DNA of 55,371 nt, from the NCBI GenBank assembly GCA_028279595.1, contig JANQNK010000015.1:1-55371 (forward strand), given 5' to 3'. Shown piece by piece: positions 16,420-40,494 of the stretch. The DNA is from Thermoplasmatota archaeon. Its GTDB lineage: Archaea; Thermoplasmatota; JAKEGO01. Every line of letters begins with the position of its first letter. Position 1 is the stretch's first letter. The notes below the pieces were generated by a model. The model had not been told where the DNA came from and did no database searches. It saw only the letters and a list, made by a program, of their open reading frames with translations. Both the position numbers and the translations under genes were made by a program.

Positions 16420-18033
16420 ATGAAGATGGTCCCTTTCATGCTGATGCTCGTTGTAATGGCTGTCATGTCGATATCCCTGAGGGGTGCTGATGGGGTCGTC
16501 GTCGATGACGATGGAGGGTCCTGGGCGGATTACACATCGATCCAGGAGGCCATCAATGCGTCGTCCAACGGCGACACGATCGTCGTTTACAACGGGACCT
16601 ACTACGAGAACGTGACCGTCAACCGTATCGTGAACCTGACCGGGAACGGGTCATCCGACACCATAATCGACGGACAGGACACCGAAGACGTCGTCCGGAC
16701 GGTCGTCAACTGGGTCAACATCTCGGGATTCCTCGTCCGGAACGCAGATGGTCAATCGGCTGTGAATGTCGGAGGAAAGAACACAGCCATCGACAACTGC
16801 ACCATCGAGATGGCGGACATTGGAGTGGACGCTCGATGGGCGGAATCCCTAACCTGCGACAACCTCACTGTATCGGACTGTACCAGGGGCATCTATCTCG
16901 CCTACTCACATGAATCGACCGTCAAATGGTCCGAATTATCGGATTGCTCGAGGTCGGGCATCGACACCATCAACAGTCACACGCTGGACCTGAACAACCT
17001 GTCGTTGCTCGGCTGCGGTCTGTCGCTAGACGACCAGAACGTCGACACGCACGTCATCGACAACTGCACGGTGAACGGACAACCGGTGCACTACTACGTG
17101 CTCGTTGACGATCTGGTCCTGGATGGCCTCGAAGGCGACCTGATAGTCGGATCCTGCGACAACATCGTCGTATCCAACTTCACCAGCTCGAACTCGTCGA
17201 CCGGGCTGAGCCTTGCCCAGGTCAACGGGTTCACTTTAAGCAACTCCTACTTCAATGGTCATTACAGGTCGATACTGGTCGAGGGTTCGACGGGGTCGAT
17301 CTCCAACGTCACCATAGAGAACTCGACCTCTGACTACATTGCCCTCTACACATGGCATGTGGACATCGATGATGTCCATCTTTCAGGCCTAGGTCCCGGC
17401 GAAGGCATCTACTTCGGAAGCCAGTGCCACAACATCACGGTGACCAACAGCACGATCGATCATCTCAGCACGGGGATACGGATCAGGGGCGAGAACATCA
17501 CGGTCGACAACGTCACCGCATATGGTCCCGTCTGCGTGTGGGCCGACGGCCTCCGGTACTCGGCCTTCAACAACTGTTCCTTTGAAGGTTCGGGCCTTTA
17601 CATCTATGATAGCCACAATATCACGGTAACGAATTGCAGCATGTACGACGGATCGAAAGGCGTTTACATCGACGATACAAACCACGTGACCGTGACCTAC
17701 TGCGAGATCTTCGACCACTCGAACTTCTGCATTCAGCTCGCGGGCGACTCGCGCGACAACCTCTTCCATCACAACAACATCGCCGACGGTGTCGTAGCCA
17801 ACGCGTACGACGATACTGGCGACAACACGTGGGACGATGGGATATCCGAGGGAAATTGGTGGGATGACTGGAACGGCAGCGGACCCTATACGGTCGACGG
17901 AGGAGCCGAGGACGCATATCCTCTTTCCGACCCGGTCGAGACCACAGCCCCCGAGAAGGTTCCCGAGTTCGGGCTCCTCCTGACGGTAACGATGATCCTC
18001 GCGCTGATGGTGATTATCCGCAGGAGACGATAG
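16420..18033 (+). CDS. Parallel beta-helix (NosD/CASH-like) surface protein, PEF-CTERM type, array copy 1
   Basis: Signal peptide, VVDDDGGSWADY..IQEAI N-cap, PbH1-like coils, HHNN..WDDG..EGNWW C-cap, and APEKVPEF-TM-RRRR. Start taken at the ATG after the GGTG SD. Confidence 0.88.
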   Translation: MKMVPFMLMLVVMAVMSISLRGADGVVVDDDGGSWADYTSIQEAINASSNGDTIVVYNGTYYENVTVNRIVNLTGNGSSDTIIDGQDTEDVVRTVVNWVNISGFLVRNADGQSAVNVGGKNTAIDNCTIEMADIGVDARWAESLTCDNLTVSDCTRGIYLAYSHESTVKWSELSDCSRSGIDTINSHTLDLNNLSLLGCGLSLDDQNVDTHVIDNCTVNGQPVHYYVLVDDLVLDGLEGDLIVGSCDNIVVSNFTSSNSSTGLSLAQVNGFTLSNSYFNGHYRSILVEGSTGSISNVTIENSTSDYIALYTWHVDIDDVHLSGLGPGEGIYFGSQCHNITVTNSTIDHLSTGIRIRGENITVDNVTAYGPVCVWADGLRYSAFNNCSFEGSGLYIYDSHNITVTNCSMYDGSKGVYIDDTNHVTVTYCEIFDHSNFCIQLAGDSRDNLFHHNNIADGVVANAYDDTGDNTWDDGISEGNWWDDWNGSGPYTVDGGAEDAYPLSDPVETTAPEKVPEFGLLLTVTMILALMVIIRRRR

Positions 18034-18107
18034 AACTCTCGCATCCGGCGTAACGCCTATTGGAAATCACTAAATAACAACATCGGTATCAACTCCCGGT
18101 GCGACGA

Positions 18108-21100
18108 ATGATGAGGTGGCTATTTTCAACGTTAGTACTAGCGATGGCGCTCTTTACGATCGCCGGAATTGCTGCAGCGGATGTGTACGTGGACGACTCC
18201 AATTCAGGGGATCCGTCGATGGACGGTACCGAGGACCATCCGTGGGATAAGATCCGGAAGGGCGTCGACGATGCTCAGGAGGGAGAGACCGTTTACGTGT
18301 GGGCCGGTACTTACCGGGAGAACCTCGAGATCGACATGCCCGTGACCCTTCAGGGGAACGGCACGAGCGCGACCTATTTGAACGGCATGGGAGGAGTGGC
18401 GATCAACATATCCTACCGGCACGTCGTCATCAAGGGGATCGCATTCCACAACTGCTCGAACGCGATCGAGACATCGGCGCCGGGCTTCGACATCGACTCT
18501 AACCTGTTCGAGGAGATCGACGAGGATTGCATAGCGATCTGGATCAACGGAACCGGCTCAAGCCTCAATATGACGAACCAGTTCCTGGCATTCCCCTCGA
18601 ACGTTACATGGAACGATATGGACTGCGAGAAGTCCGGCATCTCGGTGAACTTCACGCACATCGGGAGCTACCTCACGGACAGTGCGAGCGTGGATATCGG
18701 CGCCTTCAACTTCAACAACAACACCATCGTCGCGAAGCGCGGTGTCAACATCAACAAGGTGAGGTACCTTGGACATTCGAACACGGGTTCGACATCGTTC
18801 ACCTGGGGCGGGTTCAGGATCGTTGACAACGACATCAACGCGACGATCGGCGGTGTCAGCACGCACTGGCAGATGCAGGCCAGGTTCTGGGGCGAAACAC
18901 TGAACGGAAGTGCGCGGGTGATCCTCGGAAGCCTCGATATGAGCAACAACGTGATCGAAGCCGGGCACGAGGGGATACACTTCCCGATGATCCGCGACGT
19001 CGGGAACAACCTGTACGGCACCTCCAATGTGACCATGGGCGACGTCAGGTTCGATGACAACGACATCCTTGTCTGGAACAAGACCGACGGCGAGGCCGGG
19101 ATCGAGCTCAGGGACATCGCATACTTCGGCGAGTACATGTACGACTCCGCATCCGTCCGGATGGGCGACATCAGCTTCAGCGGGAACACGATCAACTCCA
19201 CGGGCGACGGCATATACCAGGACGATTTCGACTACTGGGGCACCAGGATGTGGGACAACACCACCTGCCTCGTGGGGAACACGACCTTCAACTGGAACAA
19301 CATCACCGCCGGGGAAGAGGGGATATACTTCGGCGAGTACGAGTACCACGGCTATAACCTCTATGATGACGCATACGTCAGGGTCGGCAACGCTGAGTTC
19401 AACCACAACAACATCACGTCCGGTAGCAACGGCATGGACGTGGACGACTGGGACTCGTGGGGACAGTACTGCTACAACAGGTCGGTCGTCAAGCACGGAT
19501 ACATGCAGGTCAACTACAACACTATCGTCGCCGGGATCGACGGTATCGAGACGAACAGCCACGGGCGGAATGCCAACGACCTCCGGGGAAGCGCCTCCGT
19601 GACGATCGGTTCCACCAGCATCGACGGGAACGTCATCGATGCCGGGTTCGCGGGGATCGACGCGGACCGCTGGGAGTATCGCGGTTGTTATCTTTACAAC
19701 GACACCGTTGCCGTCCTGGGAGACCTATCCATCAGCGACAACGTGATAACGGCCGTCTTCGACGGCATCGAGCACGAGGAATGGGCGAACTACGGCAGGA
19801 ACCTTTACGGTCGCGCCAACGTGACGGTCGGAGATATCCGCCTCGACAACAACACCGTGACCGCAGGAGGCCATGGTATCGAGTTAGATGACTTCGACAA
19901 CTACGGTTATTACATGTACAACGATTCGTCGTTCCGGATGGGTGACCTGACGACCAGCAACAACACGGTCGTGGCGAACATGACGGGCATCGAGCATCCA
20001 GAGTGCGAGTACCACGGATATCATATCTATCACAATTCGAAGGTCACCATGGGTTCGATACACCTCGACTGGAACAACGTCACGGCGAACGGGACCGGGT
20101 TCTTCATGGACGACTTCGGGTACTACGGCTACAACGTCCACGACGCGTCCTCCTTCACGATGGGCGATTTCACGTTCAACGACAACACCATCGTCGCAGG
20201 CGAGGAGGGCGTGTACCAGAGCGACTTCTCATACATTGGCCAGCATGTTCGTGGGGACTCCCATGTGACCATTGGGAATCACGAGTACAACCGCAACAAC
20301 ATCACATCGAGATACAACGGCTTGATCATCGAGGACCACTACCACTGGGGCAGGAACATGAACGGGACGTCCACGTTCACTAGGGTAGACCTGTCCATCG
20401 TCGACAACAGGATCAGGACCTCGAACGGATCCGCATCCCATAGGTCCAGCGGATTGGAGTTCAGATGGCTCAACAGCTGGGGCAGAGGGCTCTCCGACGA
20501 CGCTGAGGTGACCCACGGGTCGGTGTACGTCGTCGGGAACGACATCGAGGCGGAGGACGCCGCAATCAACTTCACGGAACAGTCCAATTTCGACTACTTC
20601 GGCTCACAGATGAGCGGGAACGCGATCACGACCATCGGTCATGTGTACATCCAGAACAACACTCTGACTGGCAACTACACGATCCACGTGGACGACCCCG
20701 ACGTCATTGGAGTAGAGAACGTCAACAACTCCGTCTTCAACTTCGGAGGGATCGTGATCTCCGGCAACACCATCAGCTCGCGTCAGAGGGGCATATCGAT
20801 CTATGACCTCCCGAAGATCTGGTCGAATCGGACAGGATCACAGAACCTCTCGTTCTTCAGGGTCCTCGACAACCGTATCAACTCCGGAAGGGTAGGCATC
20901 TGGCTTCAGGATGCATTCCAGACCGAGATCGCCTTCAACAACTGCACTGTGGACAAGTACGGGATATTCCTGGACTCCAGCAACCTCAACGACGTCCACG
21001 ACAACGAGATAGATGGAAGCGACTACGGCATGTGGCTCTGGTCCGCCGACCGCAGTGTGATCTGGAACAATTCGATACGCTACTGTGGCGTGGGAGTATG

Positions 21101-21821
21101 GGACAGGTCGAACGATTACATGGACTTCCACGGGAACGAGATCGACAACAGCACCATGTTCGGCATCAGGGGAAGGGACCCTGAATGGTGCAACTACTGG
21201 GACAACGTCATCACGGGTTCCGGAGACGACGCCTTCGCAATGAACAACTCGAACAATTGCACGATCTACAACAACACGATCTGGCGCAACGATATGGACG
21301 GCATCTACCTCTGGAGCGGGTGCGAGAACGTCACCATCTTCAACAACTCGATCAAATGGAACGGCGAGCGAGGGATCTACATCCGGGACACCAATCACTC
21401 GATGATCGAGAACAACACGATCGGGTTCAACGACGTCGGGATCAGGTGCAACGAGGGCACGAACTTCCTGAACTTCACGTACAACGAGATCTTCTGGAAC
21501 GACGGCTACGGCATTTACCTCGAGAGCAACAACTGCACTGTCCATCACAACAACTTCGACAACAATACGGCATCACCACAGTGCTCTGACGAAGGGATCG
21601 GGAACATGTGGGACGACGGCGTCTCGGAGGGGAATTGGTGGAACGACTGGAACGGCACCGGAAACTACACCATAGGTGGGTCGCCCGGCAATGTCGACAG
21701 GTATCCGCTCGGGAACAAGACAACCACCAACGCTCCGGAGAAGGTTCCCGAGTTCGGGCTACTGCTCATGGTCACAGCCCTCGTCTTCATCGCTATCGTG
21801 ATCCGAAGGCGAAGGAAGTGA
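18108..21821 (+). CDS. Large parallel beta-helix surface protein with a 37-aa repeat insert, PEF-CTERM, array copy 2
   Basis: YVDDSN..GTEDHPW N-cap, about 19 copies of a 37-aa repeat, NosD-like coils, and APEKVPEF-TM-RRRRK. Confidence 0.88.
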   Translation: MMRWLFSTLVLAMALFTIAGIAAADVYVDDSNSGDPSMDGTEDHPWDKIRKGVDDAQEGETVYVWAGTYRENLEIDMPVTLQGNGTSATYLNGMGGVAINISYRHVVIKGIAFHNCSNAIETSAPGFDIDSNLFEEIDEDCIAIWINGTGSSLNMTNQFLAFPSNVTWNDMDCEKSGISVNFTHIGSYLTDSASVDIGAFNFNNNTIVAKRGVNINKVRYLGHSNTGSTSFTWGGFRIVDNDINATIGGVSTHWQMQARFWGETLNGSARVILGSLDMSNNVIEAGHEGIHFPMIRDVGNNLYGTSNVTMGDVRFDDNDILVWNKTDGEAGIELRDIAYFGEYMYDSASVRMGDISFSGNTINSTGDGIYQDDFDYWGTRMWDNTTCLVGNTTFNWNNITAGEEGIYFGEYEYHGYNLYDDAYVRVGNAEFNHNNITSGSNGMDVDDWDSWGQYCYNRSVVKHGYMQVNYNTIVAGIDGIETNSHGRNANDLRGSASVTIGSTSIDGNVIDAGFAGIDADRWEYRGCYLYNDTVAVLGDLSISDNVITAVFDGIEHEEWANYGRNLYGRANVTVGDIRLDNNTVTAGGHGIELDDFDNYGYYMYNDSSFRMGDLTTSNNTVVANMTGIEHPECEYHGYHIYHNSKVTMGSIHLDWNNVTANGTGFFMDDFGYYGYNVHDASSFTMGDFTFNDNTIVAGEEGVYQSDFSYIGQHVRGDSHVTIGNHEYNRNNITSRYNGLIIEDHYHWGRNMNGTSTFTRVDLSIVDNRIRTSNGSASHRSSGLEFRWLNSWGRGLSDDAEVTHGSVYVVGNDIEAEDAAINFTEQSNFDYFGSQMSGNAITTIGHVYIQNNTLTGNYTIHVDDPDVIGVENVNNSVFNFGGIVISGNTISSRQRGISIYDLPKIWSNRTGSQNLSFFRVLDNRINSGRVGIWLQDAFQTEIAFNNCTVDKYGIFLDSSNLNDVHDNEIDGSDYGMWLWSADRSVIWNNSIRYCGVGVWDRSNDYMDFHGNEIDNSTMFGIRGRDPEWCNYWDNVITGSGDDAFAMNNSNNCTIYNNTIWRNDMDGIYLWSGCENVTIFNNSIKWNGERGIYIRDTNHSMIENNTIGFNDVGIRCNEGTNFLNFTYNEIFWNDGYGIYLESNNCTVHHNNFDNNTASPQCSDEGIGNMWDDGVSEGNWWNDWNGTGNYTIGGSPGNVDRYPLGNKTTTNAPEKVPEFGLLLMVTALVFIAIVIRRRRK
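18663..20800 (+). repeat. About 19 tandem 37-aa (111-nt) protein repeats
   Basis: Example units: GTRMWDNTTCLVGNTTFNWNNITAGEEGIYFGEYEYH, GYNLYDDAYVRVGNAEFNHNNITSGSNGMDVDDWDSW and GRNLYGRANVTVGDIRLDNNTVTAGGHGIELDDFDNY. Confidence 0.85.
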
Positions 21822-21906
21822 GCGCGGACCTTCGGATGGACGCCATCGTCCGATGGTCAACATATCGCTTAAATAATCAGGACGATATCCGGAAACGGTG
21901 ACCTGT

Positions 21907-23547
21907 ATGCGTATCTTGCTGTTCGCAGGATTGTTCATGTACGTAGCCCTGTTAGCGATCGTTTCCTCAGCCGAGGGCCTTTCGTTCGTAGTCGACGACG
22001 ACAACGGGACCTGGGCGGATTACGGTTCGATAACCGAGGCGATCAACCATGCTCCGGAATTCAACACGATCTACATCTACAACGGTACCTACAACGAGGA
22101 GTTCAACTGTCCGTACACGTTCACGTTCATCGGGAACGGCTCGGACGTAACGACCGTGGATGCAGACGAGGCCGACGACGTCATGGTGCTCCAGGCTCCG
22201 TGGATCAACGTCAGCGGACTGAAGCTGATGGGCCCCGGAAGCGGCGACAGCTATCTCGGGATCAACGACGAGAACGTGACCGTCGAGGACTGCGACTTCG
22301 GGGACCCGACCGACAACATCGGGAAGGCGTTCAGGATGTGGCGGAACAGCAACGTCACCATCAGGAACTGTTCCTGGTCCCTCATGAGGTGGGGAGTGCT
22401 TCTGAGGGAGTGCAACGACACGCTGTTCGAGAACTGCAACTTCTCTTCCAGCGCCTACGGGATGCTGATAGATACATCCTGGAGGATCACGATCCGCGAC
22501 TGCGAGTTCTACAACAACAGCTTCGGACTCAACATCACCGACGGATCGTACGACATCGTCGTCGAGAACAGCACCTTCCTTGCGAACGACGGGAACGTGA
22601 TCGTGGAGGAAGACTCCCATGACGTCCTGATCGGGAACTGCACCGTGAAGAGGTCGGACAAGCACGGTATCCTCGTCAACTGGTCCAACGAGGTCGATGT
22701 CATCGGCTGTACCATCTCGGATAACGGCGATCACTCTAAGGGCGATGAGATTAGGATCCAATGGGCGGACGATTGCAGGATCATCGACAACGACATCGAT
22801 ATTGGCTACAACTATGGGATCTTACTGTCGTACTGCGATGACAGCGAGGTCCGGGGAAACACGATTACAGGGGGGGGCCCAGGGATCCGCATAAGCACCT
22901 CTCACCTTTGTATCATCGAGGACAACTGGGTCCACAATATTTCCAGCGGTAGGGGTTTGCATCTACTCGATTCGAATCACACCGATATCCACAAGAACGT
23001 CTTCCTTGACAACCATGGGAATGAGATTATAGAGATCGTCTATTGCTATGATGTCAACATTACCTTCAACAACATCTCGAGGGACACCGATGCCACTGGT
23101 ATTTCCTTTAGTAACACTGACAATGTCACGGTCTTCAACAACACCATCTCGTGGACCGAGATCGGCATCTATTCGACGGACTGCGACTATCTCGAAATCG
23201 CCTACAACGAGCTCTTGAACAACACCTACTGGGGCGTGACCCTATCTTCAAGGACGACGAACAGTCTCGTGCATCACAACAACTTCTACGGCAACTACAA
23301 CAACGACGAACAGGCCTACGACTCCCAGACCAACGACTGGGACAACGGGACCGAGGGTAACTGGTGGTCCGACTGGGACGGCAACGGGACCTATGAGATT
23401 GGGGGTTCATCGTTAGCCGAGGACAATTACCCGCTCGGTTCTCCCGTCGTGACCTCGGCTCCAGAACGGGTGCCCGAGGTCGGACTGCTCCTCACGGTCG
23501 CAGCCCTCACATTCATCGCTATCGTGATCCGAAGGCGCAGGAAGTGA
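21907..23547 (+). CDS. Parallel beta-helix surface protein, PEF-CTERM type, array copy 3
   Basis: SFVVDDDNGTWADY N-cap and APERVPEV-TM-RRRRK tail. Confidence 0.88.
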   Translation: MRILLFAGLFMYVALLAIVSSAEGLSFVVDDDNGTWADYGSITEAINHAPEFNTIYIYNGTYNEEFNCPYTFTFIGNGSDVTTVDADEADDVMVLQAPWINVSGLKLMGPGSGDSYLGINDENVTVEDCDFGDPTDNIGKAFRMWRNSNVTIRNCSWSLMRWGVLLRECNDTLFENCNFSSSAYGMLIDTSWRITIRDCEFYNNSFGLNITDGSYDIVVENSTFLANDGNVIVEEDSHDVLIGNCTVKRSDKHGILVNWSNEVDVIGCTISDNGDHSKGDEIRIQWADDCRIIDNDIDIGYNYGILLSYCDDSEVRGNTITGGGPGIRISTSHLCIIEDNWVHNISSGRGLHLLDSNHTDIHKNVFLDNHGNEIIEIVYCYDVNITFNNISRDTDATGISFSNTDNVTVFNNTISWTEIGIYSTDCDYLEIAYNELLNNTYWGVTLSSRTTNSLVHHNNFYGNYNNDEQAYDSQTNDWDNGTEGNWWSDWDGNGTYEIGGSSLAEDNYPLGSPVVTSAPERVPEVGLLLTVAALTFIAIVIRRRRK

Positions 23548-23634
23548 GAGCGGACCCACACCGATAATACCGATAGTCCAATGATTTACATATCGCTTAA
23601 GTAATTCGGATTCCATCGAAACGTGGTGCCAAGC

Positions 23635-25275
23635 ATGCGTATCTGGATATTCGTAGGATTCCTGTTCCTTGCCCTTATCGCGATCATTTCTTCCGTCGAA
23701 GGAGTCTCCTTCGTCGTCGACGATGACAACGGAACCTGGGCCGATTACGGATCAATATCGGAGGCCCTCAACGATGCTCCCGAGGGCAGCACGATCTACA
23801 TCTACAACGGGACCTACGAGGAGGAGATCAACACCGGCAAGGAGTTCACCATCATCGGGAACGGTTCCAGCGACACGAAGGTCGACGCCAATGGATCGGA
23901 TGTAGTCATGACCCTTAACGGGAACGGAACATTCGTTAGCGGACTCCATCTCAAGGGGCCGGCCGAGGGTGACGAGGTCGTCAGCGTATCGGCCGAGAAC
24001 GTTACGATAGAGGATTGCGTCTTCGGTTCCAATTCCGATCCCTCGAGCAGCGGTCTGATGGGCCACGGATCGCACAATCTGACCATTCGTAGATGCACAT
24101 GGAAGGACAGGGAGAGGGGCGTCAAGGTCCGCGATGCGGTCAACATCCTCATCGAGGACTGCAATGGCTCCTCGAACGACAAGGGTATCATCTTCGATAA
24201 CGTGCAGAACGCCACGATATCCAACAACGACCTCTGGAGGAACGAATACGGCATCTGGTTGAGGGACGGATGCAGTGACGTGACGATCGAGGACAACAAC
24301 GTGGATGACAGCGGTGAGAACGGCATCGAGATCAGGATGGACTGCAACAACATCACGATCTTCGACAACGATCTGCTCAGGGCGGACCGTATTGCCATCA
24401 ATCTAACTGATACCGGTGATGTCCTGGTCGAGGACAATTACATATTCGATGATCATACCGACAACATGAACGGTGTTCGTCTCGTCAGGTCCGAGGACTG
24501 CACGATCCACAACAATACCATCGAAGCGGGAAACGCCGCCACGGCTGTCCTGCTGGAGAAATACTCTCACAGATGCAACATCAGCGATAACGTCATATAT
24601 TCGGGAAGGCACGCCATCCGCGTCAACGTTTCCAACGGCTGCTTGATCGAGGACAACTGGATACACAACAACTCGGGAATAGGTCTCCACATCGAACGGT
24701 CGAACCGGACCGATGTCCATGGGAATGTGATCGCCGACGGGACCAGCAGCAGGGAGCTCATGATGATCGAGAACTGCTACGACCTGAACATCACCAAGAA
24801 CAACTTATCCCGGAACGAGGACCGGGTCGCCATCTATATCGATGAGACCGATGACGTGTGGTTCGAGAACAACACGGTCGCGTGGAGCCAGCAGGGACTA
24901 TATGCCAGGTCATCGGACAACATCACGATAGTCTACAATGAGTTCATCAACAATACCTACTATGGCGTCTCGTTTTCAGGAAGTACCACCAACTGTCTGG
25001 TCCACCACAACAATTTCTATGGAAACTATGACAACGACGGCCAGGCATACGACAGCGCCTCGAACGATTGGGACGACGGGTCCGAAGGGAACTGGTGGTC
25101 GGACTGGGACGGTAACGGAACCTACGAGATCGATGGTTCCGGACAGGAGGACGGTTCTCCCTTTGCGGAGCCCGTCGAAACCGGTGCGCCCGAAAAGGTT
25201 CCCGAGATCGGGCTGCTCCTCACGGTCGCATCCCTCGCCTTCCTCGCCGTTTTCATCCGACGGAGATACATCTGA
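23635..25275 (+). CDS. Parallel beta-helix surface protein, PEF-CTERM type, array copy 4 (close paralog of copy 3)
   Basis: SFVVDDDNGTWADY N-cap and APEKVPEI-TM-RRRYI tail. Confidence 0.88.
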   Translation: MRIWIFVGFLFLALIAIISSVEGVSFVVDDDNGTWADYGSISEALNDAPEGSTIYIYNGTYEEEINTGKEFTIIGNGSSDTKVDANGSDVVMTLNGNGTFVSGLHLKGPAEGDEVVSVSAENVTIEDCVFGSNSDPSSSGLMGHGSHNLTIRRCTWKDRERGVKVRDAVNILIEDCNGSSNDKGIIFDNVQNATISNNDLWRNEYGIWLRDGCSDVTIEDNNVDDSGENGIEIRMDCNNITIFDNDLLRADRIAINLTDTGDVLVEDNYIFDDHTDNMNGVRLVRSEDCTIHNNTIEAGNAATAVLLEKYSHRCNISDNVIYSGRHAIRVNVSNGCLIEDNWIHNNSGIGLHIERSNRTDVHGNVIADGTSSRELMMIENCYDLNITKNNLSRNEDRVAIYIDETDDVWFENNTVAWSQQGLYARSSDNITIVYNEFINNTYYGVSFSGSTTNCLVHHNNFYGNYDNDGQAYDSASNDWDDGSEGNWWSDWDGNGTYEIDGSGQEDGSPFAEPVETGAPEKVPEIGLLLTVASLAFLAVFIRRRYI

Positions 25276-26917: not shown

Positions 26918-26973
26918 GCCATCTGCTCCACAAAATCCTTAAGTAGTCACCGACAGGTCGACACGGTGTGCAA

Positions 26974-27186: not shown

Positions 27187-27223
27187 CAAGGAACGCAGAC
27201 GCCGTTCCGGCTAAATAAAGAAC

Positions 27224-27583: not shown

Positions 27584-27721
27584 GTAGTCTCCCTCGGATG
27601 TCTGCCTCTTAGCGAGTCGCTTTACTACCACTTATTACTTCCGGACGGTGCAACCCACGTCAGAGCATTCGCTGTGTTCTCTACTTATAGCAACTGGTAA
27701 ACCCGTTACATCGGGTCCCGG

Positions 27722-30019: not shown

Positions 30020-30079
30020 ACGTTCCACGGAACGTATAAGAACGGGCCATTGCATTCGTTACCCAAAGGGGTGACTAGA

Positions 30080-31741: not shown

Positions 31742-31799
31742 ACCCATCACGGAACCTATAATAACTGGCCAGTACATTCGGTCACCAAGGGTGACGTGA

Positions 31800-34700
31800 A
31801 TGAGGGTAGCGACCGTACTGATGATGATAGTGATAGCCTGTGCGTTGACAGTCATGGCGGGATCCGCTTCGGCGGCAGACATAATCGTCGACGATGACTG
31901 GGGGGGCGCCGACCACTCCGACATCCAGGACGCGATCGACGCTGCGACGGCCGGGGACAACATACTGATATACGAGGGCCAGTACAACGAGCACGTCCTG
32001 GTGAACAAGTCCGTGAACCTGGTGGGCAACGGGACCGACGAATCCGTCGTGTACGGATTCTACAGCTTCGGGGACACCATCCGGGTCACTGAGAGCTATG
32101 TGAACATATCTGGCCTGAACATCACCGCCAGCGGGACGGACTCCTGGGACGCGGGCATCGAGGTGTACTACTCCGAATACGTGAACGTATGGGACTGCCT
32201 CTTCTACGACGACTACTGGTCCGTCCTTCTGACACTTTCCAACTTCGTGAACATCACGGACTGTGACATGTTCAACAATTCCGACGGGATGCGCGTCTAC
32301 GGGTCTACGAACGTCACCGTCAAGGGATGCAACATCACAGGGAACGATTACTACGGGATCTATGTCTATCAGGGTTCCGAGCATTGCGTCTTCGCCGACA
32401 ACGACCTCAGTCTCAACAACAGGATAAAGGGGTACAGCTACGATGGGTTCAGGATCCATGCGAGCTCCAACATCACGGTCAGGAACAACCGGATGAACAG
32501 GACCCACATGCACCTTCTCCGGATAACTGCGAGCCGTGAGTGTCACGTGTACGATAACTACTTCATCAAAGCGCGCGGAAAGAACGACGACCACGCAGCG
32601 GTCGAGATCAAGAGGTCCAACAATGGAACGTTCTACTACAACAACATCTCGGAATGCGTCAAGCAGGGACTGCGGATGGAGAGGTGCGACCATTACTACG
32701 TCTACATCAACACCGTCATGGATGCCTATGAATTGCCCTTCTACATCTTCGACTCGGTCGACGTCTCCGTGTCGGCCAACTGGGTCTCGGACAACTACCG
32801 GGCCGGCATAACCCTCGTCAATGTCACAGAGCTGGACGTCATTGCGAACACTGTCAAGCGGAACAACGGCAACGGTCTCACGGTGAGGATGTCGGATGAT
32901 GCACTGGTGCAATGGAACGAGGTGCACCACAATTACGTGTCTGGGATCCTCCTGTGGCAGGCCAACAACTCGACCGTACTGAAGAACAACGCCACGTACA
33001 ACAACCAATACGCTCTTTTGCAGGCGAACAACGCCGGGATAACGCTCCGCAATTCCACCTGGAACAACGTCTCGGGCAACTACGTGAGCAACAATCCGAA
33101 ACAGGGCGTCTATCTCTTCCAGGGTGCCGAGAACAACACCCTGTACAACAACGACGTCGTCTTCAATTGCGGTGGGGACGCCGGCATCTTCGTGAACTGG
33201 TGTCCGAACACCACGATCATGAACAACAACGTCTCCAACAGCACTGGCGACGGGATCCAGCTCTTCGGCTCCGAGTACAGCACGATCACCGGGAACACGA
33301 TCAACGGCAACAACATGAACGCCACGCAGACCGCTGGAATGGTCGTCACGAACAGCGACTACGTCTACGTCGCCGACAACGAGATCTCCTGGAACAGCGG
33401 CCGGGGATTCACCATCGAGACGAGCGACATGGCCAACGTCTCCCGCAACGAGATACACAACAACACCGAGCGGGGTCTCTATCTCTACTTCAGCGACAAC
33501 ATCACGGCCGTGGACAATAACATCACGGGCAACGGTTACGAAGGGATCTACGTGGTCGAGTGCATGTCAGCAGAGGTCTTCGGGAACGATATCGTCCTTA
33601 ACAACCAGGACGATGCGGCTCCATGGAGCCACGCCGGCCTCTACCTCTACGACACCGACTACGTGAACGTCTCCAAGAACTACGTCCGCGGCAATCCCTA
33701 CTACGGTGTCCGTGTCAACAACGCCTACCACAACGAATTCTTCAATAATACCATAGTCTTCAACTGCGGAGGTCACTCCGGGATATACCTCTTCACCGCT
33801 GATTACACGGAGATCTGGTACAACAACATCTCCAACAACACCGGGGACGGGATCGAGATCAGTACGTCCGACCACCTGGAGATACACAGGAACAGGATCA
33901 ACGGGAACAACAGGGGAGGGGACGGTTCAGGCGGTATCATGGTAAGCAATTGCGACCGCGTCAGCATCTTCTACAACGAGATATCGGACAATTACGAGAA
34001 CGGGGTGAGGACGTCTTCTGCCGACAACGTTAACCTCCGTCACAATGAGATACACAACAATGAGTGGACTGGCGTCTACGGTTGGTACTCCGACTATCTG
34101 TGGGTGGTGTTCTGCAACATCACCGGCCACAACGAATCGGGACTCTACCTGGGTCACTGCGACTCCCCATACATCGCGGACAATCACGTGGCCGACAACA
34201 ACAATGGGCCGACCCCCGAGGACCATGCGGGGATATACATCGAGGACGGCAGCGATGGCCACTACGGCGGGAACGATCTCTACAGGAACATGGAGTACGG
34301 CTTCTACATCACCGAGACCGACAACGCCTCGGCCAACAACAACATCGTCAAGTATACCAACGGCAGCGGAGCCGGTGTCTACCTGAATGAGAACGACAAC
34401 CTCACGGTATCCTGGAACGTCATAAAGCTCAACAGGATCCACGGAATAAGAATTGAGGAGGGAAAGTTCTGTCGCTATCACAACAACACGATCGACGAGA
34501 ACGGCCGTCCCGGGTGGTGGTATGCCGGCGTCTCGACCAGTAGGTGCAACAACGCGACATGGGAGAACAATACGATCATCAACAATCACGGGAATGCACT
34601 CAACTTCTCCCCTGGATTCTATATCACGATCGAGAACAACATACTCACCGACAACACCCATTACGGAATAATCTACAGCGAGAGCGACGTCTTCGTCATC

Positions 34701-35114
34701 TCGAACAATACGATCGCGAGGAATGGATGGAGCATCCGTTTGTATAAATCCAACAATTCGGTCATAACATACAACGAGATCTTCTACAATGAAAATCACG
34801 GCGTTTACATACGCAGTGGCAGCTGGAACTACGTCCACCACAACAACTTCTACGGTAACGGGAACTTCACATCCCAGGGCTACGACAATGGAACGAACAA
34901 CATATGGGACAACGGCATCGACGAGGGCAATTACTGGGACGACTGGAGCGGCAACGGGACCTATCCGATCGACGGGAGTGCTGGAGCCGAGGACAGGTAT
35001 CCGCTCGGGAACGCGACTAACAACAACGCTCCGGAAAAGGTACCGGAACTCGGACTGCTCCTATCGATCTCGATGATCCTGGTAGCAGCCGTGATCGTAC
35101 GCAGACGTTTCTAG
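31800..35114 (+). CDS. Large parallel beta-helix surface protein, PEF-CTERM type, array copy 8
   Basis: IIVDDDWGGADH..IQDAI N-cap, a long PbH1 run with an internal ~199-aa duplication, and APEKVPEL-TM-RRRF tail. Confidence 0.9.
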   Translation: MRVATVLMMIVIACALTVMAGSASAADIIVDDDWGGADHSDIQDAIDAATAGDNILIYEGQYNEHVLVNKSVNLVGNGTDESVVYGFYSFGDTIRVTESYVNISGLNITASGTDSWDAGIEVYYSEYVNVWDCLFYDDYWSVLLTLSNFVNITDCDMFNNSDGMRVYGSTNVTVKGCNITGNDYYGIYVYQGSEHCVFADNDLSLNNRIKGYSYDGFRIHASSNITVRNNRMNRTHMHLLRITASRECHVYDNYFIKARGKNDDHAAVEIKRSNNGTFYYNNISECVKQGLRMERCDHYYVYINTVMDAYELPFYIFDSVDVSVSANWVSDNYRAGITLVNVTELDVIANTVKRNNGNGLTVRMSDDALVQWNEVHHNYVSGILLWQANNSTVLKNNATYNNQYALLQANNAGITLRNSTWNNVSGNYVSNNPKQGVYLFQGAENNTLYNNDVVFNCGGDAGIFVNWCPNTTIMNNNVSNSTGDGIQLFGSEYSTITGNTINGNNMNATQTAGMVVTNSDYVYVADNEISWNSGRGFTIETSDMANVSRNEIHNNTERGLYLYFSDNITAVDNNITGNGYEGIYVVECMSAEVFGNDIVLNNQDDAAPWSHAGLYLYDTDYVNVSKNYVRGNPYYGVRVNNAYHNEFFNNTIVFNCGGHSGIYLFTADYTEIWYNNISNNTGDGIEISTSDHLEIHRNRINGNNRGGDGSGGIMVSNCDRVSIFYNEISDNYENGVRTSSADNVNLRHNEIHNNEWTGVYGWYSDYLWVVFCNITGHNESGLYLGHCDSPYIADNHVADNNNGPTPEDHAGIYIEDGSDGHYGGNDLYRNMEYGFYITETDNASANNNIVKYTNGSGAGVYLNENDNLTVSWNVIKLNRIHGIRIEEGKFCRYHNNTIDENGRPGWWYAGVSTSRCNNATWENNTIINNHGNALNFSPGFYITIENNILTDNTHYGIIYSESDVFVISNNTIARNGWSIRLYKSNNSVITYNEIFYNENHGVYIRSGSWNYVHHNNFYGNGNFTSQGYDNGTNNIWDNGIDEGNYWDDWSGNGTYPIDGSAGAEDRYPLGNATNNNAPEKVPELGLLLSISMILVAAVIVRRRF

Positions 35115-35208
35115 GGCGAACACTGGGGCATCGCTGAGTCAGCACGAGTGGTATAGCTTTACCCAAATACCTTAATATCACGGATGACATTCGAAAACGG
35201 TGCTCTAC

Positions 35209-36870
35209 ATGCTGCGGGGAATCATATATGGAATGGTAATGCTGGCAGTCGTCACGTTGGTCCTCGGCCCTGTCCATGGGGATGACTGGATCGTCGACGA
35301 CGACGCCGGGACATGGAGAACGCATCACACGATCCAGGACGCCATCAACCAGTCCTCGGCAGGGGACAACATAAGCGTCTATGCCGGCACGTACAACGAG
35401 GACGTCGTCGTGAACCAGACCGTCAGGATCATCGGGAACGGGTCCGGAGAGACGGTCATCAACGGATCTGCATGGGCGACCGCTGTCTTGATATCCGTCA
35501 ATCATGTCAACATCACGGGCGTATCCATCAACGCGACCCCGTTCACGTACGGGATCGATGTCGACGGCCACTACGTCACCGTGGACAACGGCAGCATCAC
35601 GAACTGCAGCACCGGCATCCACTCCTCGGCGATCTACGGGCGGTTCGACAACCTCACCATCTCCGATTGCGAATACGGAGCCTATTACGATTTCCTGTCG
35701 GGATGGCATTACATGCGGGAGTGCACCTTTGACAACATGTTGACGGCCAGTATCAGTATGTACTACTCGGAGAACAACATCTTCCGCGAGTGCGTGTTCG
35801 CCGAGAAGGGGGTCGAGATAGGCGGGGGTTCCGTGGATTACTTCGAGCATCACACGATCCACAATTGCAGGATTGCCGGTCCTGGATGGAAGGCCGTCGT
35901 CTACGACGATATGGGCGATAACTTCACGTTCCAGCGCGACGACAACATTGGTCAGCTCATTCTTGTGAACGTCGACAACGTGACCATCGAGAACACCGAT
36001 TTCGAGACGGGAGGATGGCCGATCGTCCTGGCCTACAGCAAGAACATCGAGATCAGGAACATGACGATTACCAACGCCACCAATGGCTACACCATAATGA
36101 ACTCCAACAATGTCACCTTTCAGAACGTGAGCATCTCGGGGATGTCGGGTTCATCGATCTATGCCGAGGGATCACCGAACTGCGTACTAGATGGAGTTAA
36201 CGTGACCGACTGTGAATACGGGTTCTGGACCACGAACGGTGGCGGTTACTCAACGTTGTCGTACTTCAACGTCACCGACACCTATCGGCCAATCCATTGC
36301 TTCGATCCATATGTCACGGTCGAGAACTCCACGTTCACCGATTGTCAGAGTCCGGTATACGTCTATGACCACAACTTCACCATGCGGCACTGTCTCATCA
36401 ACGGAACCAGTTCGTCGGGGTGCTATCTCCGGTCGAGCTACTCCCTTTACGAGAACAACACGTTCCGCGATATCGGGACCTATGGCTTCTTCATGACCGA
36501 TCCGGTCACCCGTGGGAACGTCATCATCTACAACGAGATCTTCAACACCAACAATTACGCGATATGGATGCGGTCCGGCGCCAACAACAACACGGTCCAT
36601 CACAACAACTTCGCGAACAACGACCGGGACCCGCAGTGCAGCGATGACGGCGTCGACAACATGTGGGACGACGGAGCGGAAGGAAACTACTGGGACGACT
36701 GGAACGGGACCGGCAACTACACACTGGACGGCTCGGCCAAGAGTGCGGACGAGCATCCGCTCGGTGATCCCGAGGACACCAGTGCTCCGGAAAAGGTACC
36801 GGAACTACACGTGATGGCATCTATGATTGGCCTCCTCGGCGCCGTCTTCATCCTCCGGAGACGTCGCTGA
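35209..36870 (+). CDS. Parallel beta-helix surface protein, PEF-CTERM type, array copy 9
   Basis: WIVDDDAGTW..IQDAI N-cap and APEKVPEL-TM-RRRR tail. Confidence 0.88.
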   Translation: MLRGIIYGMVMLAVVTLVLGPVHGDDWIVDDDAGTWRTHHTIQDAINQSSAGDNISVYAGTYNEDVVVNQTVRIIGNGSGETVINGSAWATAVLISVNHVNITGVSINATPFTYGIDVDGHYVTVDNGSITNCSTGIHSSAIYGRFDNLTISDCEYGAYYDFLSGWHYMRECTFDNMLTASISMYYSENNIFRECVFAEKGVEIGGGSVDYFEHHTIHNCRIAGPGWKAVVYDDMGDNFTFQRDDNIGQLILVNVDNVTIENTDFETGGWPIVLAYSKNIEIRNMTITNATNGYTIMNSNNVTFQNVSISGMSGSSIYAEGSPNCVLDGVNVTDCEYGFWTTNGGGYSTLSYFNVTDTYRPIHCFDPYVTVENSTFTDCQSPVYVYDHNFTMRHCLINGTSSSGCYLRSSYSLYENNTFRDIGTYGFFMTDPVTRGNVIIYNEIFNTNNYAIWMRSGANNNTVHHNNFANNDRDPQCSDDGVDNMWDDGAEGNYWDDWNGTGNYTLDGSAKSADEHPLGDPEDTSAPEKVPELHVMASMIGLLGAVFILRRRR

Positions 36871-36922
36871 CCTCCCAATATCGCTAAATATCGGCATGCC
36901 GTTGCCGCTACCAGTGGTGCAA

Positions 36923-38593: not shown

Positions 38594-38661
38594 TCCTCGG
38601 AAGCGAGAACTCTCCCAAAAAGGATAAATAATCTCATCCCATTCGATAGGCGGGTGTGACC

Positions 38662-40494
38662 ATGCGGGGGCATATGCGAATATTTGTAATCGGCATGATA
38701 GCATTGGCGATCTTCATGACGTTGATTGGGACCGTCGAATCCACAGATTGGATAGTCGACGACGATCCCCATTCGAACAGGGATTTCAGGTACATACAGG
38801 ATGCGATCAATGCATCCTCGAGCGGTGACAACATCAAGATATACAACGGGACGTACAGGGAGCATCTCACTGTGAACACCAGGGTGTACATCCAGGGGAA
38901 CGGAACGGACCAGACCTTCATCATCGGCAGGGGTGATGCCGATGCGATCATAGTGACGGCGGACGAGTGCGTGTTCTGGATGCTGAACATCACCCCCGGG
39001 AGCGGACTCAATCTGACCGGTATCTACGTCTACAGGTCGGATGACGTCGAGATACTGGACTGCTCGATACATCATTGCATGATGGGGGTCTACTACTACG
39101 AGTCCTCGCACCCGTGGACGGAGGACCTCGTTCTCTACGACAATTCCGGTGATGGGATCAAGATCCACTACAGCCCGTATTGGTTTGTGGATTCCGCATC
39201 CATCTGGGACAACGGCGGGTTCGGTGCCTATTCCGCCGGCAGTTCCAACGGGACGATGGTCAACACCGATTTCGTGCGCGACGGCTTGTACATCGACGGG
39301 AATATCAACGACACAACATCACACTGGATCGAGGACAACACAGTCAACGGCCGGCCTCTATACTTCATCAACAACACCCAACAAGCGAGTATACCCAAGA
39401 ACCAGGGCCAGTATATACTCGCAAACGCCGATTTTGATTACATCGTTGACACCGTGATAACAGACACCGACGTCGGGATCCTTCTCATCCACTCGTCCAG
39501 GATCGGGATCAGACGAGTTGAGATATTCAATGTGATGACCGGAGTGATCTTCGACAGGACCACGGAGTCGAATATAACCAACTCCGGGATCAATGACACC
39601 ACCGATTGCGGGATCAAGGTCCTTGCCTCTACCCATTGCTTCATCGAGAACACCACCATCAACGACACGACCGACGGGATCAAGGTGGACGGTGAGACCT
39701 TCACCGAGGTTTTGAACAGGACATCGGGATACTCCATCTACTACGAAGGCCATCACCTCCTCATCAACGACTGCCACATATTCAATCTGTCCGACGACGG
39801 CATCGATGTCCACACTATGAACTACACGCTCATCAACTACACGAGGATCAACAACACATACGGGAACGGTATCCTCATACACGAGAACACCCACAATTCC
39901 TCGATCTATCGGTGCGCCATCCTCAACGTGAGCGATGACGGGATCCTGTTATTCAACGAAGTGAGCAACAACACCGTGGCCCGCTGTGACGTCTCCAACT
40001 GTTCCGGCAGGGGGATCGTGATGACGACCGATGCCAACAGCAACAACATCACGAATTGTTCCGTCCACAACAACACTAATCCCGGGATAATGGTCCTTTC
40101 CTCGGATTACAACAACATCACCTACAACAACATCTGGGGCAACGGGAACTATGGTGTTAGCCTTCTCGGGGCCTTCGGGACCCGGGTCCATCACAACAAC
40201 TTCGACGCAAACGGTGCAGGGACCTCTCAGGGCAACGATAACAACGGTCTGAACCATTGGGACCAGGGCGGGGAGGGCAACTACTGGGACGACTATGGAG
40301 GCACAGATGGTAATGGAGATGGGATCGGTGACACGGCCTATGACATCGACGGCGCCGGTAATGACACTGACGACTATCCATTGATGGACCCTGGCGACAC
40401 CTCCGCGCCGAGGAAGATCGCCGAGTTCACGATACTCGTCACCATATCCATTACCCTCTTCGCCCTCCTAGCCATCGGAAAACGAACGAGGTGA
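38662..40494 (+). CDS. Parallel beta-helix surface protein with degenerate PEF-CTERM, array copy 11
   Basis: WIVDDD..IQDAI N-cap, NTVNGRPLY insert, GNYWDDY..DGNGDGIGD C-cap, and APRKIAEF-TM-KRTR tail. Confidence 0.88.
   Translation: MRGHMRIFVIGMIALAIFMTLIGTVESTDWIVDDDPHSNRDFRYIQDAINASSSGDNIKIYNGTYREHLTVNTRVYIQGNGTDQTFIIGRGDADAIIVTADECVFWMLNITPGSGLNLTGIYVYRSDDVEILDCSIHHCMMGVYYYESSHPWTEDLVLYDNSGDGIKIHYSPYWFVDSASIWDNGGFGAYSAGSSNGTMVNTDFVRDGLYIDGNINDTTSHWIEDNTVNGRPLYFINNTQQASIPKNQGQYILANADFDYIVDTVITDTDVGILLIHSSRIGIRRVEIFNVMTGVIFDRTTESNITNSGINDTTDCGIKVLASTHCFIENTTINDTTDGIKVDGETFTEVLNRTSGYSIYYEGHHLLINDCHIFNLSDDGIDVHTMNYTLINYTRINNTYGNGILIHENTHNSSIYRCAILNVSDDGILLFNEVSNNTVARCDVSNCSGRGIVMTTDANSNNITNCSVHNNTNPGIMVLSSDYNNITYNNIWGNGNYGVSLLGAFGTRVHHNNFDANGAGTSQGNDNNGLNHWDQGGEGNYWDDYGGTDGNGDGIGDTAYDIDGAGNDTDDYPLMDPGDTSAPRKIAEFTILVTISITLFALLAIGKRTR

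What the first reader, a model, noticed from the sequence alone, without database searches (positions are those of the whole stretch)
16420..40494. Eleven-gene tandem array of PEF-CTERM-type beta-helix surface proteins with constant ends and variable middles
Seen: 11 co-oriented paralogs (about 430-1,240 aa) share an N-cap (VDDD..WAD...I..A.....G..I.VY.GTY.E...GNG) and a C-cap (HHNNF..WDDG.EGN(W/Y)W.DW.G.G.Y.I.G....D.YPL...APEKVPE(F/L/I/V)-TM-RRRR), while the solenoid between them is highly divergent. They are dense in N-x-S/T sequons. Established: PEF-CTERM tails are predicted archaeosortase (ArtC-type) substrates, often glycoproteins. Inference: a diversified repertoire of surface adhesins or glycan-binding proteins, where conserved ends act as recombination handles. 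With the flanking subtilase and giant adhesin, it forms a ~41-kb cell-surface locus.
Basis: partly seen in the sequence, partly recalled or inferred. Interest (0 to 1): 0.75.

Follow-up and report, generated by a model that had tools for sequence, protein, structure and literature searches.

The report
Archaeal beta-helix surface protein gene array
Eleven neighbouring genes in an uncultured marine archaeon encode rod-shaped (beta-helix) cell-surface proteins, probably sugar-coated, that share a membrane-anchoring tail. They are old, far-diverged copies of a common archaeal protein family, not an actively shuffling system, so the finding is real but fairly ordinary.

Summary
Eleven co-oriented genes (431-1,240 aa) encode a signal peptide, a NosD-type right-handed beta-helix, a conserved N-cap and C-cap, and an APEKVPE[FLIV]-TM-RRRR tail. 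Sequons are about 4 per 100 aa. The run is 5 + 6 genes, split by a 1.8-kb insert.

The array is the largest cluster of a family of at least 25 members in this Thermoplasmatota genome. The caps match the ends of the NosD models, so they are family-wide features.

The tail looks like PEF-CTERM but misses the curated cut-off (14.7 vs 23 bits). The genome has ArtA, an ArtC-like archaeosortase (51 vs 100 bits) and a third sortase. In a same-order genome the ArtC-like gene lies about 580 bp from a family member.

"Recombination handles" is not supported for the present. Synonymous differences are as saturated in the caps (0.61-0.65) as in the middles (0.60). The longest exact DNA match between genes is 26 nt. 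Even the closest pair, A3/A4, has dS of at least 0.86 throughout. N-cap and C-cap trees do conflict (AU p = 0.010), which suggests ancient mosaicism.

Function is inferred: a glycosylated coat of glycan-binding or glycan-processing rods. This scan has seen similar arrays in other archaea. It is a variant of a known kind, of modest interest.

The parts
14318..16363 (+). Flanking S8 subtilase with signal peptide and C-terminal TM anchor (no PEF-like tail)
   Evidence: Pfam Peptidase_S8, 145.8 bits. A 72% identical ortholog exists in G002, but no array lies beside it there.
16360..18033 (+). A1, 557 aa as listed (likely start ATG at 16396, after a TATA-like box at 16381); tail APEKVPEF
18099..21821 (+). 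A2, 1,240 aa; long-type N-cap; about 18 internal 37-aa coil units (residues ~178-857)
   Evidence: the N-cap groups with C18/C5/C1 members at 100/98 support
21898..23547 (+). A3, 549 aa; closest paralog of A4 (47% overall)
23623..25275 (+). A4, 550 aa
25322..26917 (+). A5, 531 aa
26918..28723 (.). 1.8-kb insert that splits the array: 72-aa ORF 26968-27186 (+), 135-aa ORF 27224-27631 (-), DUF4352 lipoprotein-like ORF 27722-28540 (-)
   Evidence: No family similarity by tblastn; ORFs; DUF4352, 59.9 bits
28724..30019 (+). A6, 431 aa, the shortest member; modelled as a right-handed beta-helix plus a C-terminal TM helix
   Evidence: AF2 pLDDT 91.8, pTM 0.85; Foldseek matches
30050..31741 (+). A7, 563 aa as listed (likely start ATG at 30080)
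31800..35114 (+). A8, 1,104 aa; internal ~150-aa module duplication (471-620 vs 670-816, 40.5% identity)
35200..36870 (+). A9, 556 aa
36923..38593 (+). A10, about 556 aa from the likely ATG (the listed TTG at 36827 overlaps A9)
38656..40494 (+). A11, 612 aa; its C-cap keeps the longer NosD-type loop (GTDGNGDGIGDTAYDI); tail APRKIAEF
41325..55371 (+). Giant ORF (at least 4,682 aa, runs off the contig): signal anchor, ~170-aa tandem repeats, no Pfam hit

Best explanation
The array is the largest cluster (5 + 6 genes) of an old family of NosD-type right-handed beta-helix cell-surface proteins. The family has at least 25 members in this genome and is expanded in an uncultured marine Thermoplasmatota order.

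Each gene appears to have its own TATA-like promoter. Each product is exported through a Sec-type signal peptide and probably heavily N-glycosylated (inferred from sequon density and an AglB homologue). It folds into a beta-helix rod whose two ends are closed by the family's conserved N-cap and C-cap.

A short linker then leads to an APEKVPE[FLIV] motif, a TM helix and an Arg cluster. This is most likely a lineage-specific PEF-CTERM-like sorting signal. I infer that the genome's ArtC-like archaeosortase cleaves it, by analogy with ArtA/PGF-CTERM, which leaves proteins lipid-anchored.

The caps and tail stay alike because of purifying selection on folding, capping and sorting, not because of gene conversion. 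The helix flanks between them have diverged to about 20% identity, and helix length changes by internal duplication of coils. The likely result is a repertoire of rods with different glycan-binding, adhesive or glycan-processing specificities (inferred).

Shown: gene anatomy, fold, family size, saturation of synonymous sites, absence of shared DNA tracts, presence of the sortases. Inferred: glycosylation, sortase processing, ligand specificity.
For: - Fold and family: Pfam Beta_helix and NosD above cut-off in all ten members scanned. AF2 model of A6 at pLDDT 91.8, a beta-helix plus TM helix. NosD is the closest solved sequence relative (7o0y, E 3.9e-29). Fold matches are to AlgE4 epimerase, tailspikes, PL6/chondroitinase B, pectin methylesterases and NosD.
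- Caps are family-wide: the NosD NCBIfam model begins at the N-cap and Pfam NosD ends at the C-cap. The C-cap alone matches PDB 2kzw. In other families of the phylum the C-cap recurs without the tail.
- Selection, not conversion: pS is 0.61-0.65 in caps and 0.60 in middles. The longest exact nucleotide match is 26 nt, against 15-17 in codon shuffles. No tract exceeds about 88% over 44-61 nt among all 25 genes. For A3/A4, dS is at least 0.86 everywhere, with dN/dS 0.05-0.2 in caps and 0.3-1.0 in the middle.
- Sorting: the tail motif occurs on at least 25 family members, and a second PEF class occurs on unrelated giant proteins. ArtA's own PGF-CTERM substrates are separate. The best NCBIfam hit of the C14 sortase is archaeosortase C, and the exo_archaeo signature passes its cut-off. 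Its 48% identical ortholog in G002 lies about 580 bp from a family member. G002 has the same three sortases.
- Glycosylation: sequons are 2.5-3 times expectation, and an STT3/AglB homologue is present.
- Separate promoters: every pure A/T 8-mer in the 24 kb is intergenic or upstream.
- Length variation: internal repeats in A2 and A8.
Against: - The tail scores below the PEF-CTERM cut-off (best 14.7 vs 23 bits) and scores about as well against Heimdall-, Loki- and IPTL-CTERM models.
- The sortase scores below the ArtC cut-off (51 vs 100 bits).
- The ArtC-like gene was not found in the same-family genome G001, which is 73% complete.
- A third, unclassified sortase could be the cognate enzyme instead.
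- There is no expression, glycosylation or processing data.
- No polar residue is conserved in the middle, so no function can be read from a shared site.
- Cap trees conflict, so the history is not simple duplication and divergence.
Confidence: 0.68

Rival explanations
1. Active diversity-generating repertoire: the conserved caps are homologous-recombination handles, and middles are currently shuffled or converted among copies to vary the cell surface.
For: Constant ends with variable middles. Distances in N-cap, middle and C-cap are uncorrelated (Mantel r about 0). C-cap data reject the clade of long-N-cap members (p-AU 0.010) and the pair {A1, C19_45096}, despite 73% N-cap identity (p 0.026). 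The A2 and A3 tails plus 3' flank are 84% identical over 99 nt. The array is absent beside the orthologous subtilase in G002.
Against: Cap synonymous sites are saturated (pS 0.61-0.65). The longest exact match is 26 nt, and cap DNA is only 60-85% identical. dS is at least 0.86 in every window of the closest pair. This is too little identity for efficient homologous recombination now. The AU groups were chosen partly after the data had been seen. The caps are generic NosD-family ends.
Confidence: 0.1
2. Surface-tethered polysaccharide-degrading or polysaccharide-modifying enzymes (lyases, epimerases, esterases, glycosidases) used by a marine heterotroph to forage. On this reading the proteins are enzymes, not adhesins or a structural coat. 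It overlaps with the best explanation instead of excluding it.
For: The best fold and profile matches are enzymes: AlgE4/AlgE6 epimerases, PL6 lyases, chondroitinase B, pectin methylesterases, GH87/GH110. There are weak partial Pfam hits to Pect-lyase_RHGA_epim and Pectinesterase. A secreted subtilase is adjacent.
Against: Identity to all of these is 9-15%. No polar residue is invariant in the middle across paralogs or relatives; the invariant columns all lie in the caps. The Pfam enzyme hits cover about 50 residues of generic repeat or fall below cut-off. No AlgE-type DPH motif was seen on reading the sequences.
Confidence: 0.2
3. The tail is just a C-terminal stop-transfer membrane anchor. 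No archaeosortase processes it, and the APEKVPEF motif is a juxtamembrane linker conserved by descent.
For: No curated CTERM model reaches its cut-off. No sortase is in the window. The ArtC-like gene was not found in G001.
Against: The motif is better conserved than the TM helix it precedes. A PEF-TM-RRRR tail also ends unrelated giant proteins. Three archaeosortase-family genes exist, yet PGF-CTERM tails were found on only about 3-4 ORFs, one above cut-off. In G002 the sortase lies next to a family member.
Confidence: 0.22
4. Genuine NosD copper/sulfur chaperones of nitrous-oxide reductase maturation.
For: Pfam NosD and NCBIfam NosD_copper_fam are the top named hits. 7o0y is the best solved relative.
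Against: NCBIfam scores are 55-133 bits against a cut-off of 300. There are at least 25 copies, each with its own TM tail and no NosFY partners nearby. No nos_propeller hit was found in the genome, though the control for that search was uninformative. The literature treats such NosD-like proteins as adhesion- or glycan-related (PMC13452462).
Confidence: 0.02

Closest known systems
PEF-CTERM sorting signal (TIGR03024) with archaeosortase C (TIGR03762). An in-silico pairing by Haft et al. 2012 (PMC3256604), as cited in PMC9723798 and PMC5244752.
   Same: A tripartite C-terminal signal (P-E-F-type motif, TM helix, Arg cluster) on many secreted proteins of one genome. The best family hit of the co-occurring sortase is ArtC. 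ArtA with its own PGF-CTERM substrates is present alongside.
   Different: The tails score 10-15 bits against a cut-off of 23, and the sortase 51 against 100. The motif is longer (A-P-E-K-V-P-E-[FLIV]) and F is often L, I or V. Some paralogs elsewhere have P-G-[IL]. With this exact tail the family was found only in this order (G000, G001, G002), not in 38 other genomes of the phylum.
NosD / CASH-type right-handed parallel beta-helix (Pfam PF05048, PF13229; PDB 7o0y)
   Same: The same fold and repeat type. The N-cap and C-cap correspond to the ends of the NosD models. A11 keeps the NosD-type GNYW..Y.G.D.NGDGIGD loop.
   Different: It is not the NosD equivalog (55-133 vs 300 bits). The proteins are multi-copy and self-anchored by a sorting tail, with no Nos partners seen.
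Adhesin-like proteins (ALPs) of Methanobacteriales (PMC11532034, PMC13658579)
   Same: Dozens of paralogous, membrane-anchored surface proteins per genome, built on right-handed beta-helix domains of very variable length. They are presumed glycan-binding or adhesion proteins.
   Different: ALPs are mostly anchored at the N-terminus and carry extra adhesin (Big-like) repeats. Here the beta-helix stands alone with a C-terminal sortase-type tail. Homology beyond the shared fold was not tested.
Tandem beta-helix surface-gene clusters with PEF-like tails, noted earlier in this scan in Aenigmarchaeota and Bathyarchaeia (e1-2767495, e1-2449350)
   Same: Neighbouring paralogs with a signal peptide, a beta-helix and a PEF-like tail; conserved ends and diverged middles.
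   Different: The Aenigmarchaeota case was reported to have ends homogenised by recombination. Here the ends are not homogenised at the DNA level, and the array is larger (11 genes).

Membership tests
PEF-CTERM sorting domain (TIGR03024) | HMM score at or above the curated cut-off (23 bits) | tested here: not met
   Best array tail 14.7 bits. Best in the whole genome 15.2 bits. Heimdall-, Loki- and IPTL-CTERM models score similarly, all below their cut-offs.
PEF-CTERM sorting domain (TIGR03024) | Tripartite architecture at the extreme C-terminus: short signature motif, hydrophobic TM helix, basic cluster | tested here: met
   All 11 end in APE[KR][VI][PA]E[FLIV], then about 20 hydrophobic residues, then a basic cluster (RRRR in most; weaker in A4, A5 and A11). 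The AF2 model has a helix at 408-430.
PEF-CTERM sorting domain (TIGR03024) | Literal P-E-F signature | tested here: inconclusive
   PEF in A1, A2, A5 and A10; AEF in A6 and A11; PE[LIV] in A3, A4, A7, A8 and A9.
PEF-CTERM sorting domain (TIGR03024) | Many substrates per genome, co-occurring with a dedicated archaeosortase | tested here: met
   At least 25 family members plus about 5 other proteins carry PEF-like tails. Three exo_archaeo-family genes are present.
Archaeosortase C (TIGR03762) | HMM score at or above the cut-off (100 bits) | tested here: not met
   G000:C14:105189-106337 scores 51.1 bits. ArtC is nonetheless its best-scoring named family.
Archaeosortase C (TIGR03762) | Exosortase/archaeosortase signature domain (TIGR04178) with Cys, Arg and His motifs | tested here: met
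   TIGR04178 scores 42.7 bits against a cut-off of 23. ACSGMYS, NMLRM and WGHAYLG were read directly in the sequence. They were not aligned to an experimentally characterised enzyme.
Archaeosortase C (TIGR03762) | Genomic association with its substrates | tested here: inconclusive
   In G002 the 48% identical ortholog lies about 580 bp from a tail-bearing family member. In G000 it is on another contig, and it was not found in G001 (73% complete).
NosD, nitrous-oxide reductase maturation protein (TIGR04247) | HMM score at or above the cut-off (300 bits) | tested here: not met
   55-133 bits.
NosD, nitrous-oxide reductase maturation protein (TIGR04247) | Nos context (nosZ, nosFY) in the genome | tested here: inconclusive
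   No nos_propeller match, but the control genomes did not ring either and the genome is 86% complete.
Right-handed parallel beta-helix (Pfam PF13229 / PF05048) | Domain hits above the gathering score, and a beta-helix fold | tested here: met
   PF13229 at 77-159 bits and PF05048 at 61-136 bits in the ten members scanned. A6 model at pLDDT 91.8, with Foldseek probability 1.00 to beta-helix enzymes.
Recombination-driven cassette / gene-conversion surface-variation system | Long tracts of near-identical DNA shared by copies, with depressed synonymous divergence in the constant ends | tested here: not met
   pS in caps 0.61-0.65 vs 0.60 in middles. Longest exact match 26 nt. Best tract about 88% over 44-61 nt. 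A3/A4 dS at least 0.86 throughout.

The most novel reading that the evidence does not exclude
An order-specific sorting system: an extended APEKVPE[FLIV]-CTERM signal paired with a divergent ArtC-like archaeosortase. It would serve about 30 substrates in a little-sampled marine Thermoplasmatota order. Its main clients would be a beta-helix repertoire assembled by ancient swapping of caps and middles, sitting in a strain-variable surface island as a glycoprotein coat shaped by virus or grazer pressure.
Probability: 0.25. Interest if true: 0.5.

Novelty: new variant of a known kind. Interest (0 to 1): 0.33.

Why it matters
The work gives a tested picture of the cell surface of an uncultured marine Thermoplasmatota lineage. 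That surface would be dominated by a large family of beta-helix rods, probably glycosylated, with a lineage-specific PEF-like sorting tail and a candidate cognate sortase.

It also shows that 'constant ends, variable middle' in solenoid proteins need not mean cassette recombination. Comparing synonymous divergence between the ends and the middle separates selection on fold caps from gene conversion.

The tail motif and the ArtC-like enzyme could be used to widen the curated PEF-CTERM and ArtC models. No new principle is revealed.

Tried and rejected
- A degraded twelfth copy in the 26918-28723 gap: no tblastn similarity.
- PEF-CTERM by HMM: below cut-off, both on isolated tails and genome-wide.
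- Gene conversion: rejected by pS per region, longest common substrings, all-against-all blastn and sliding dN/dS.
- Strain comparison: the nearest outside homologs of A3 are only 31-36% identical, and the A3 cluster holds only this contig, so no sister strain was available.
- Tail-pattern scan of GTDB genome contigs: no relative found outside this genome.
- Synteny: G002 has the subtilase ortholog but no array beside it. Two marine MAGs with 47-49% identical subtilases also lack it.
- Orthologs of array members in G001 and G002: none convincing (middle similarity at most 0.21, against 0.54 for a true cross-genus pair of the C18 cluster). Those genomes are incomplete.
- Shared catalytic residues: none found.
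- TRF on the array found only two trivial 15-nt repeats. The internal protein repeats are too diverged for it and were shown by blastp instead.
- Rfam and tRNA scans of the window: nothing.
- The third sortase's neighbour (a 1,563-aa ORF) has no sorting-type tail.
- Two of the planned AU tests did not finish in time.
Full report
**What is there.**
The window is a whole 55-kb contig (C12) of a 2.29-Mb, 21-contig, 86%-complete genome. Between 16360 and 40494 lie eleven + strand ORFs of 431-1,240 aa. An alignment shows that all have:
- a hydrophobic N-terminal signal ending in small residues;
- an N-cap (VDDD..W.D...I..A.....G..I.VY.GTY.E......GNG);
- a C-cap (HHNNF...WDDG..EGN[WY]W.DW.G.G.Y.I.G....D.YPL);
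- a tail APE[KR][VI][PA]E[FLIV], then about 20 hydrophobic residues, then a basic cluster, RRRR in most.

Mean pairwise identity is 45% in the N-cap, 50% in the C-cap, 51% in the tail and 20% in the middle. Sequons occur at 3.7-4.5 per 100 aa. That is 2.5-3 times the expectation from composition, against a genome median of 0.22.

Three corrections apply. The run is 5 + 6 genes, split by a 1.8-kb insert (26918-28723). The insert holds three unrelated small ORFs, one of them a DUF4352 lipoprotein-like gene on the opposite strand, and no family remnant. A10 most likely starts at 36923, not 36827. The array's GC (0.55-0.57) equals the genome mean (0.575), while 2-14 kb of the contig is a low-GC island.

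**Family and fold.**
The ten members scanned (all but A8) hit Pfam Beta_helix (77-159 bits) and NosD (61-136 bits). The NCBIfam NosD model hits them all at 55-133 bits, far below its 300-bit cut-off. An AlphaFold2 model of A6 (pLDDT 91.8, pTM 0.85) is a right-handed beta-helix with a short N-terminal capping helix and a C-terminal TM helix.

Foldseek matches are mannuronan C-5 epimerases, phage tailspikes, chondroitinase B/PL6 lyases, pectin methylesterases and NosD, all at 9-15% identity. By profile, NosD (7o0y) is the closest solved relative (E 3.9e-29). The C-cap alone matches the small uncharacterised chain 2kzw.

The NosD NCBIfam model begins at the N-cap, and Pfam NosD ends at the C-cap. 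The C-cap also recurs, without the tail, in beta-helix proteins of other Thermoplasmatota families. The 'constant ends' are therefore the generic end-caps of this fold family. Such caps are known to protect beta-helix ends (Bryan et al. 2011, cited in PMC11532034).

The long members are lengthened by internal duplication. A2 has about 18 units of 37 aa, and A8 has a module of about 150 aa. No polar residue is invariant in the middle, so no shared catalytic site exists.

**Family size and distribution.**
A profile of C-cap plus tail finds 25 full-length members in this genome: 11 here, the rest on C18, C19, C10, C1, C4, C5 and C9, several in tandem. It also finds many internal C-caps inside giant proteins. 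The same-family genome G001 and the same-order genome G002 have 17 and 40 matches, including tail-bearing members. In 38 other genomes of the phylum, all but one match cover only the helix cap, not the tail. A pattern scan of GTDB contigs for the exact tail found no other carrier. The nearest outside homologs of A3 are 31-36% identical, so no sister strain is available.

**Sorting signal.**
No tail reaches the PEF-CTERM cut-off (best 14.7 vs 23 bits). Heimdall-, Loki- and IPTL-CTERM models score similarly, all below their cut-offs. The genome has three exosortase/archaeosortase-family genes:
- a clear ArtA (141.6 vs 75 bits);
- an ArtC-like protein on C14 (best hit TIGR03762, 51 vs 100 bits; signature domain 42.7 vs 23 bits; Cys, Arg and His motifs readable);
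- a third, unclassified one.

ArtA has its own PGF-CTERM candidates elsewhere. A second PEF-type tail (TGT[VI][IV]PEFG) ends unrelated giant proteins on C19 and C18. This argues for a general sorting signal, not a family-specific linker.

In G002 the 48% identical ortholog of the ArtC-like gene lies about 580 bp from a tail-bearing family member, and G002 has the same three sortases. In G001 (73% complete) it was not found. The ArtC/PEF-CTERM pairing itself is an in-silico association (Haft 2012, as cited in PMC9723798 and PMC5244752). I therefore rate 'archaeosortase substrate' as likely but unproven, and formal membership as not met. An STT3/AglB homologue is present, which supports N-glycosylation.

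**Recombination handles?**
If the caps were homogenised by conversion, their synonymous sites should be less diverged than those of the middles. They are not. pS is 0.61 in the N-cap, 0.65 in the C-cap, 0.63 in the tail and 0.60 in the middle. The longest exact DNA match between two genes is 26 nt (the A2 and A3 tails), against 15-17 nt in codon-shuffled controls. Cap DNA is 60-85% identical. All-against-all blastn of the 25 genes finds nothing better than about 88% over 44-61 nt.

The closest pair, A3/A4 (47% overall), has dS of at least 0.86 in every 60-codon window. Its dN/dS is 0.05-0.2 in the caps and 0.3-1.0 in the middle. The caps are thus kept by purifying selection, and the copies are old. 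Their cap identities (about 45-50%) equal those of a true cross-genus orthologous pair (C18_147434 vs a G001 protein: 0.54 and 0.50).

**Signs of ancient mosaicism.**
The history is still not simple duplication and divergence. N-cap, middle and C-cap distances are uncorrelated (Mantel r about 0). Best partners differ by segment. C-cap data reject the clade of five 'long N-cap' members, which the N-cap tree supports at 100/98 (p-AU 0.010). They also reject {A1, C19_45096} despite 73% N-cap identity (p 0.026). These groups were chosen partly after the data had been seen, and the segments are short. I read this as moderate evidence for ancient exchange of ends, not for an active system.

**Locus stability.**
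G002 has a 72% identical ortholog of the flanking subtilase, but no beta-helix gene anywhere on that 38-kb contig. Two marine MAGs with 47-49% identical subtilases also lack an array. None of the eleven genes has a convincing ortholog among the tail-bearing proteins fetched from G001 and G002. The array's place and content are therefore lineage-specific, within the limits of incomplete genomes.

**Expression.**
Every pure A/T 8-mer in the 24 kb lies in an intergenic or upstream position. Each gene has a TATA-like box about 27-50 nt before its likely start. This suggests separate promoters, which is an inference.

**Verdict.**
This is a real, large cluster of an expanded NosD-type beta-helix surface-protein family. 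It carries a lineage-specific PEF-like tail and has a candidate ArtC-like sortase. It works like the known ArtC/PEF-CTERM and archaeal adhesin-like-protein systems, but it fails the curated membership thresholds for PEF-CTERM, ArtC and NosD proper.

The scan has already reported similar tandem beta-helix clusters with PEF-like tails in Aenigmarchaeota and Bathyarchaeia. The present case differs in size and in lacking homogenised ends. Interest is modest.

Noticed in passing
window 2000-14217: A low-GC island (0.35-0.46, genome 0.575) with defence-island-like content: KaiC-like ATPase (2087-2866, -), PKD-domain protein (2890-5598), pentapeptide-repeat/ion-channel fusion (5870-7114), MBL/beta-CASP nuclease (7119-8759, -), Schlafen-group-3/DUF2075-type helicase (11097-12677), and an HNH endonuclease with a weak SRA-like N-terminus (13330-14217, -).
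   Followed up: partly
window 26918-28723: The insert that splits the array holds a 72-aa ORF (26968-27186, +) that looks HicB-antitoxin-like by eye but has no Pfam hit, a 135-aa ORF (27224-27631, -), and a DUF4352 lipoprotein-like ORF (27722-28540, -).
   Followed up: partly
window 40635-40710 and 41180-41255: Two look-alike elements of about 75 nt (GGAGGAGGWAGAGGTAATRGC ... TGTGGAGTGGTG), each about 25-30 nt after a TATA-like box, lie in the 830-nt non-coding gap before the giant ORF. The motif occurs nowhere else in the genome and has no Rfam match. They could be small RNAs or a duplicated 5' leader.
   Followed up: partly
window 41325-55371: A giant ORF (at least 4,682 aa, open at the contig end) with a signal anchor and tandem repeats of about 170 aa (73-36% identical). 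It is rich in D, G and T, has only 0.85 sequons per 100 aa and no Pfam hit at E <= 0.001. 'Adhesin' is unproven.
   Followed up: partly
G000:C10:11171-12886, C1:3953-8170, C18:20776-22236, C18:22059-24269: Some family members elsewhere in the genome have P-G-[IL] or S-G-L where the array has P-E-[FLIV]. Their tails sit between the PEF and PGF signal types.
   Followed up: no
G000:C19:248399-271323 and C18:271615-272373: A second class of PEF tails (TGT[VI][IV]PEFG-TM-RRRR) ends four tandem giant or large proteins (2,834, 2,402, 1,704 and 572 aa) and a 252-aa protein, none related to the beta-helix family.
   Followed up: no
L017 (G000:C14:103692-107834) and L018 (G002:C39): In both genomes the ArtC-like archaeosortase is convergent with an M50-type (HEMGH) membrane peptidase gene. 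In G000, a large secreted protein lies directly upstream on the same strand.
   Followed up: no
L045 (G035:C12:18500-38000): Another Thermoplasmatota family has three tandem beta-helix-containing proteins of 1,240-1,430 aa. Their tails differ (VPET or LPEV, then TM, then a basic stretch), so tandem beta-helix surface arrays are common in the phylum while the tails are lineage-specific.
   Followed up: partly
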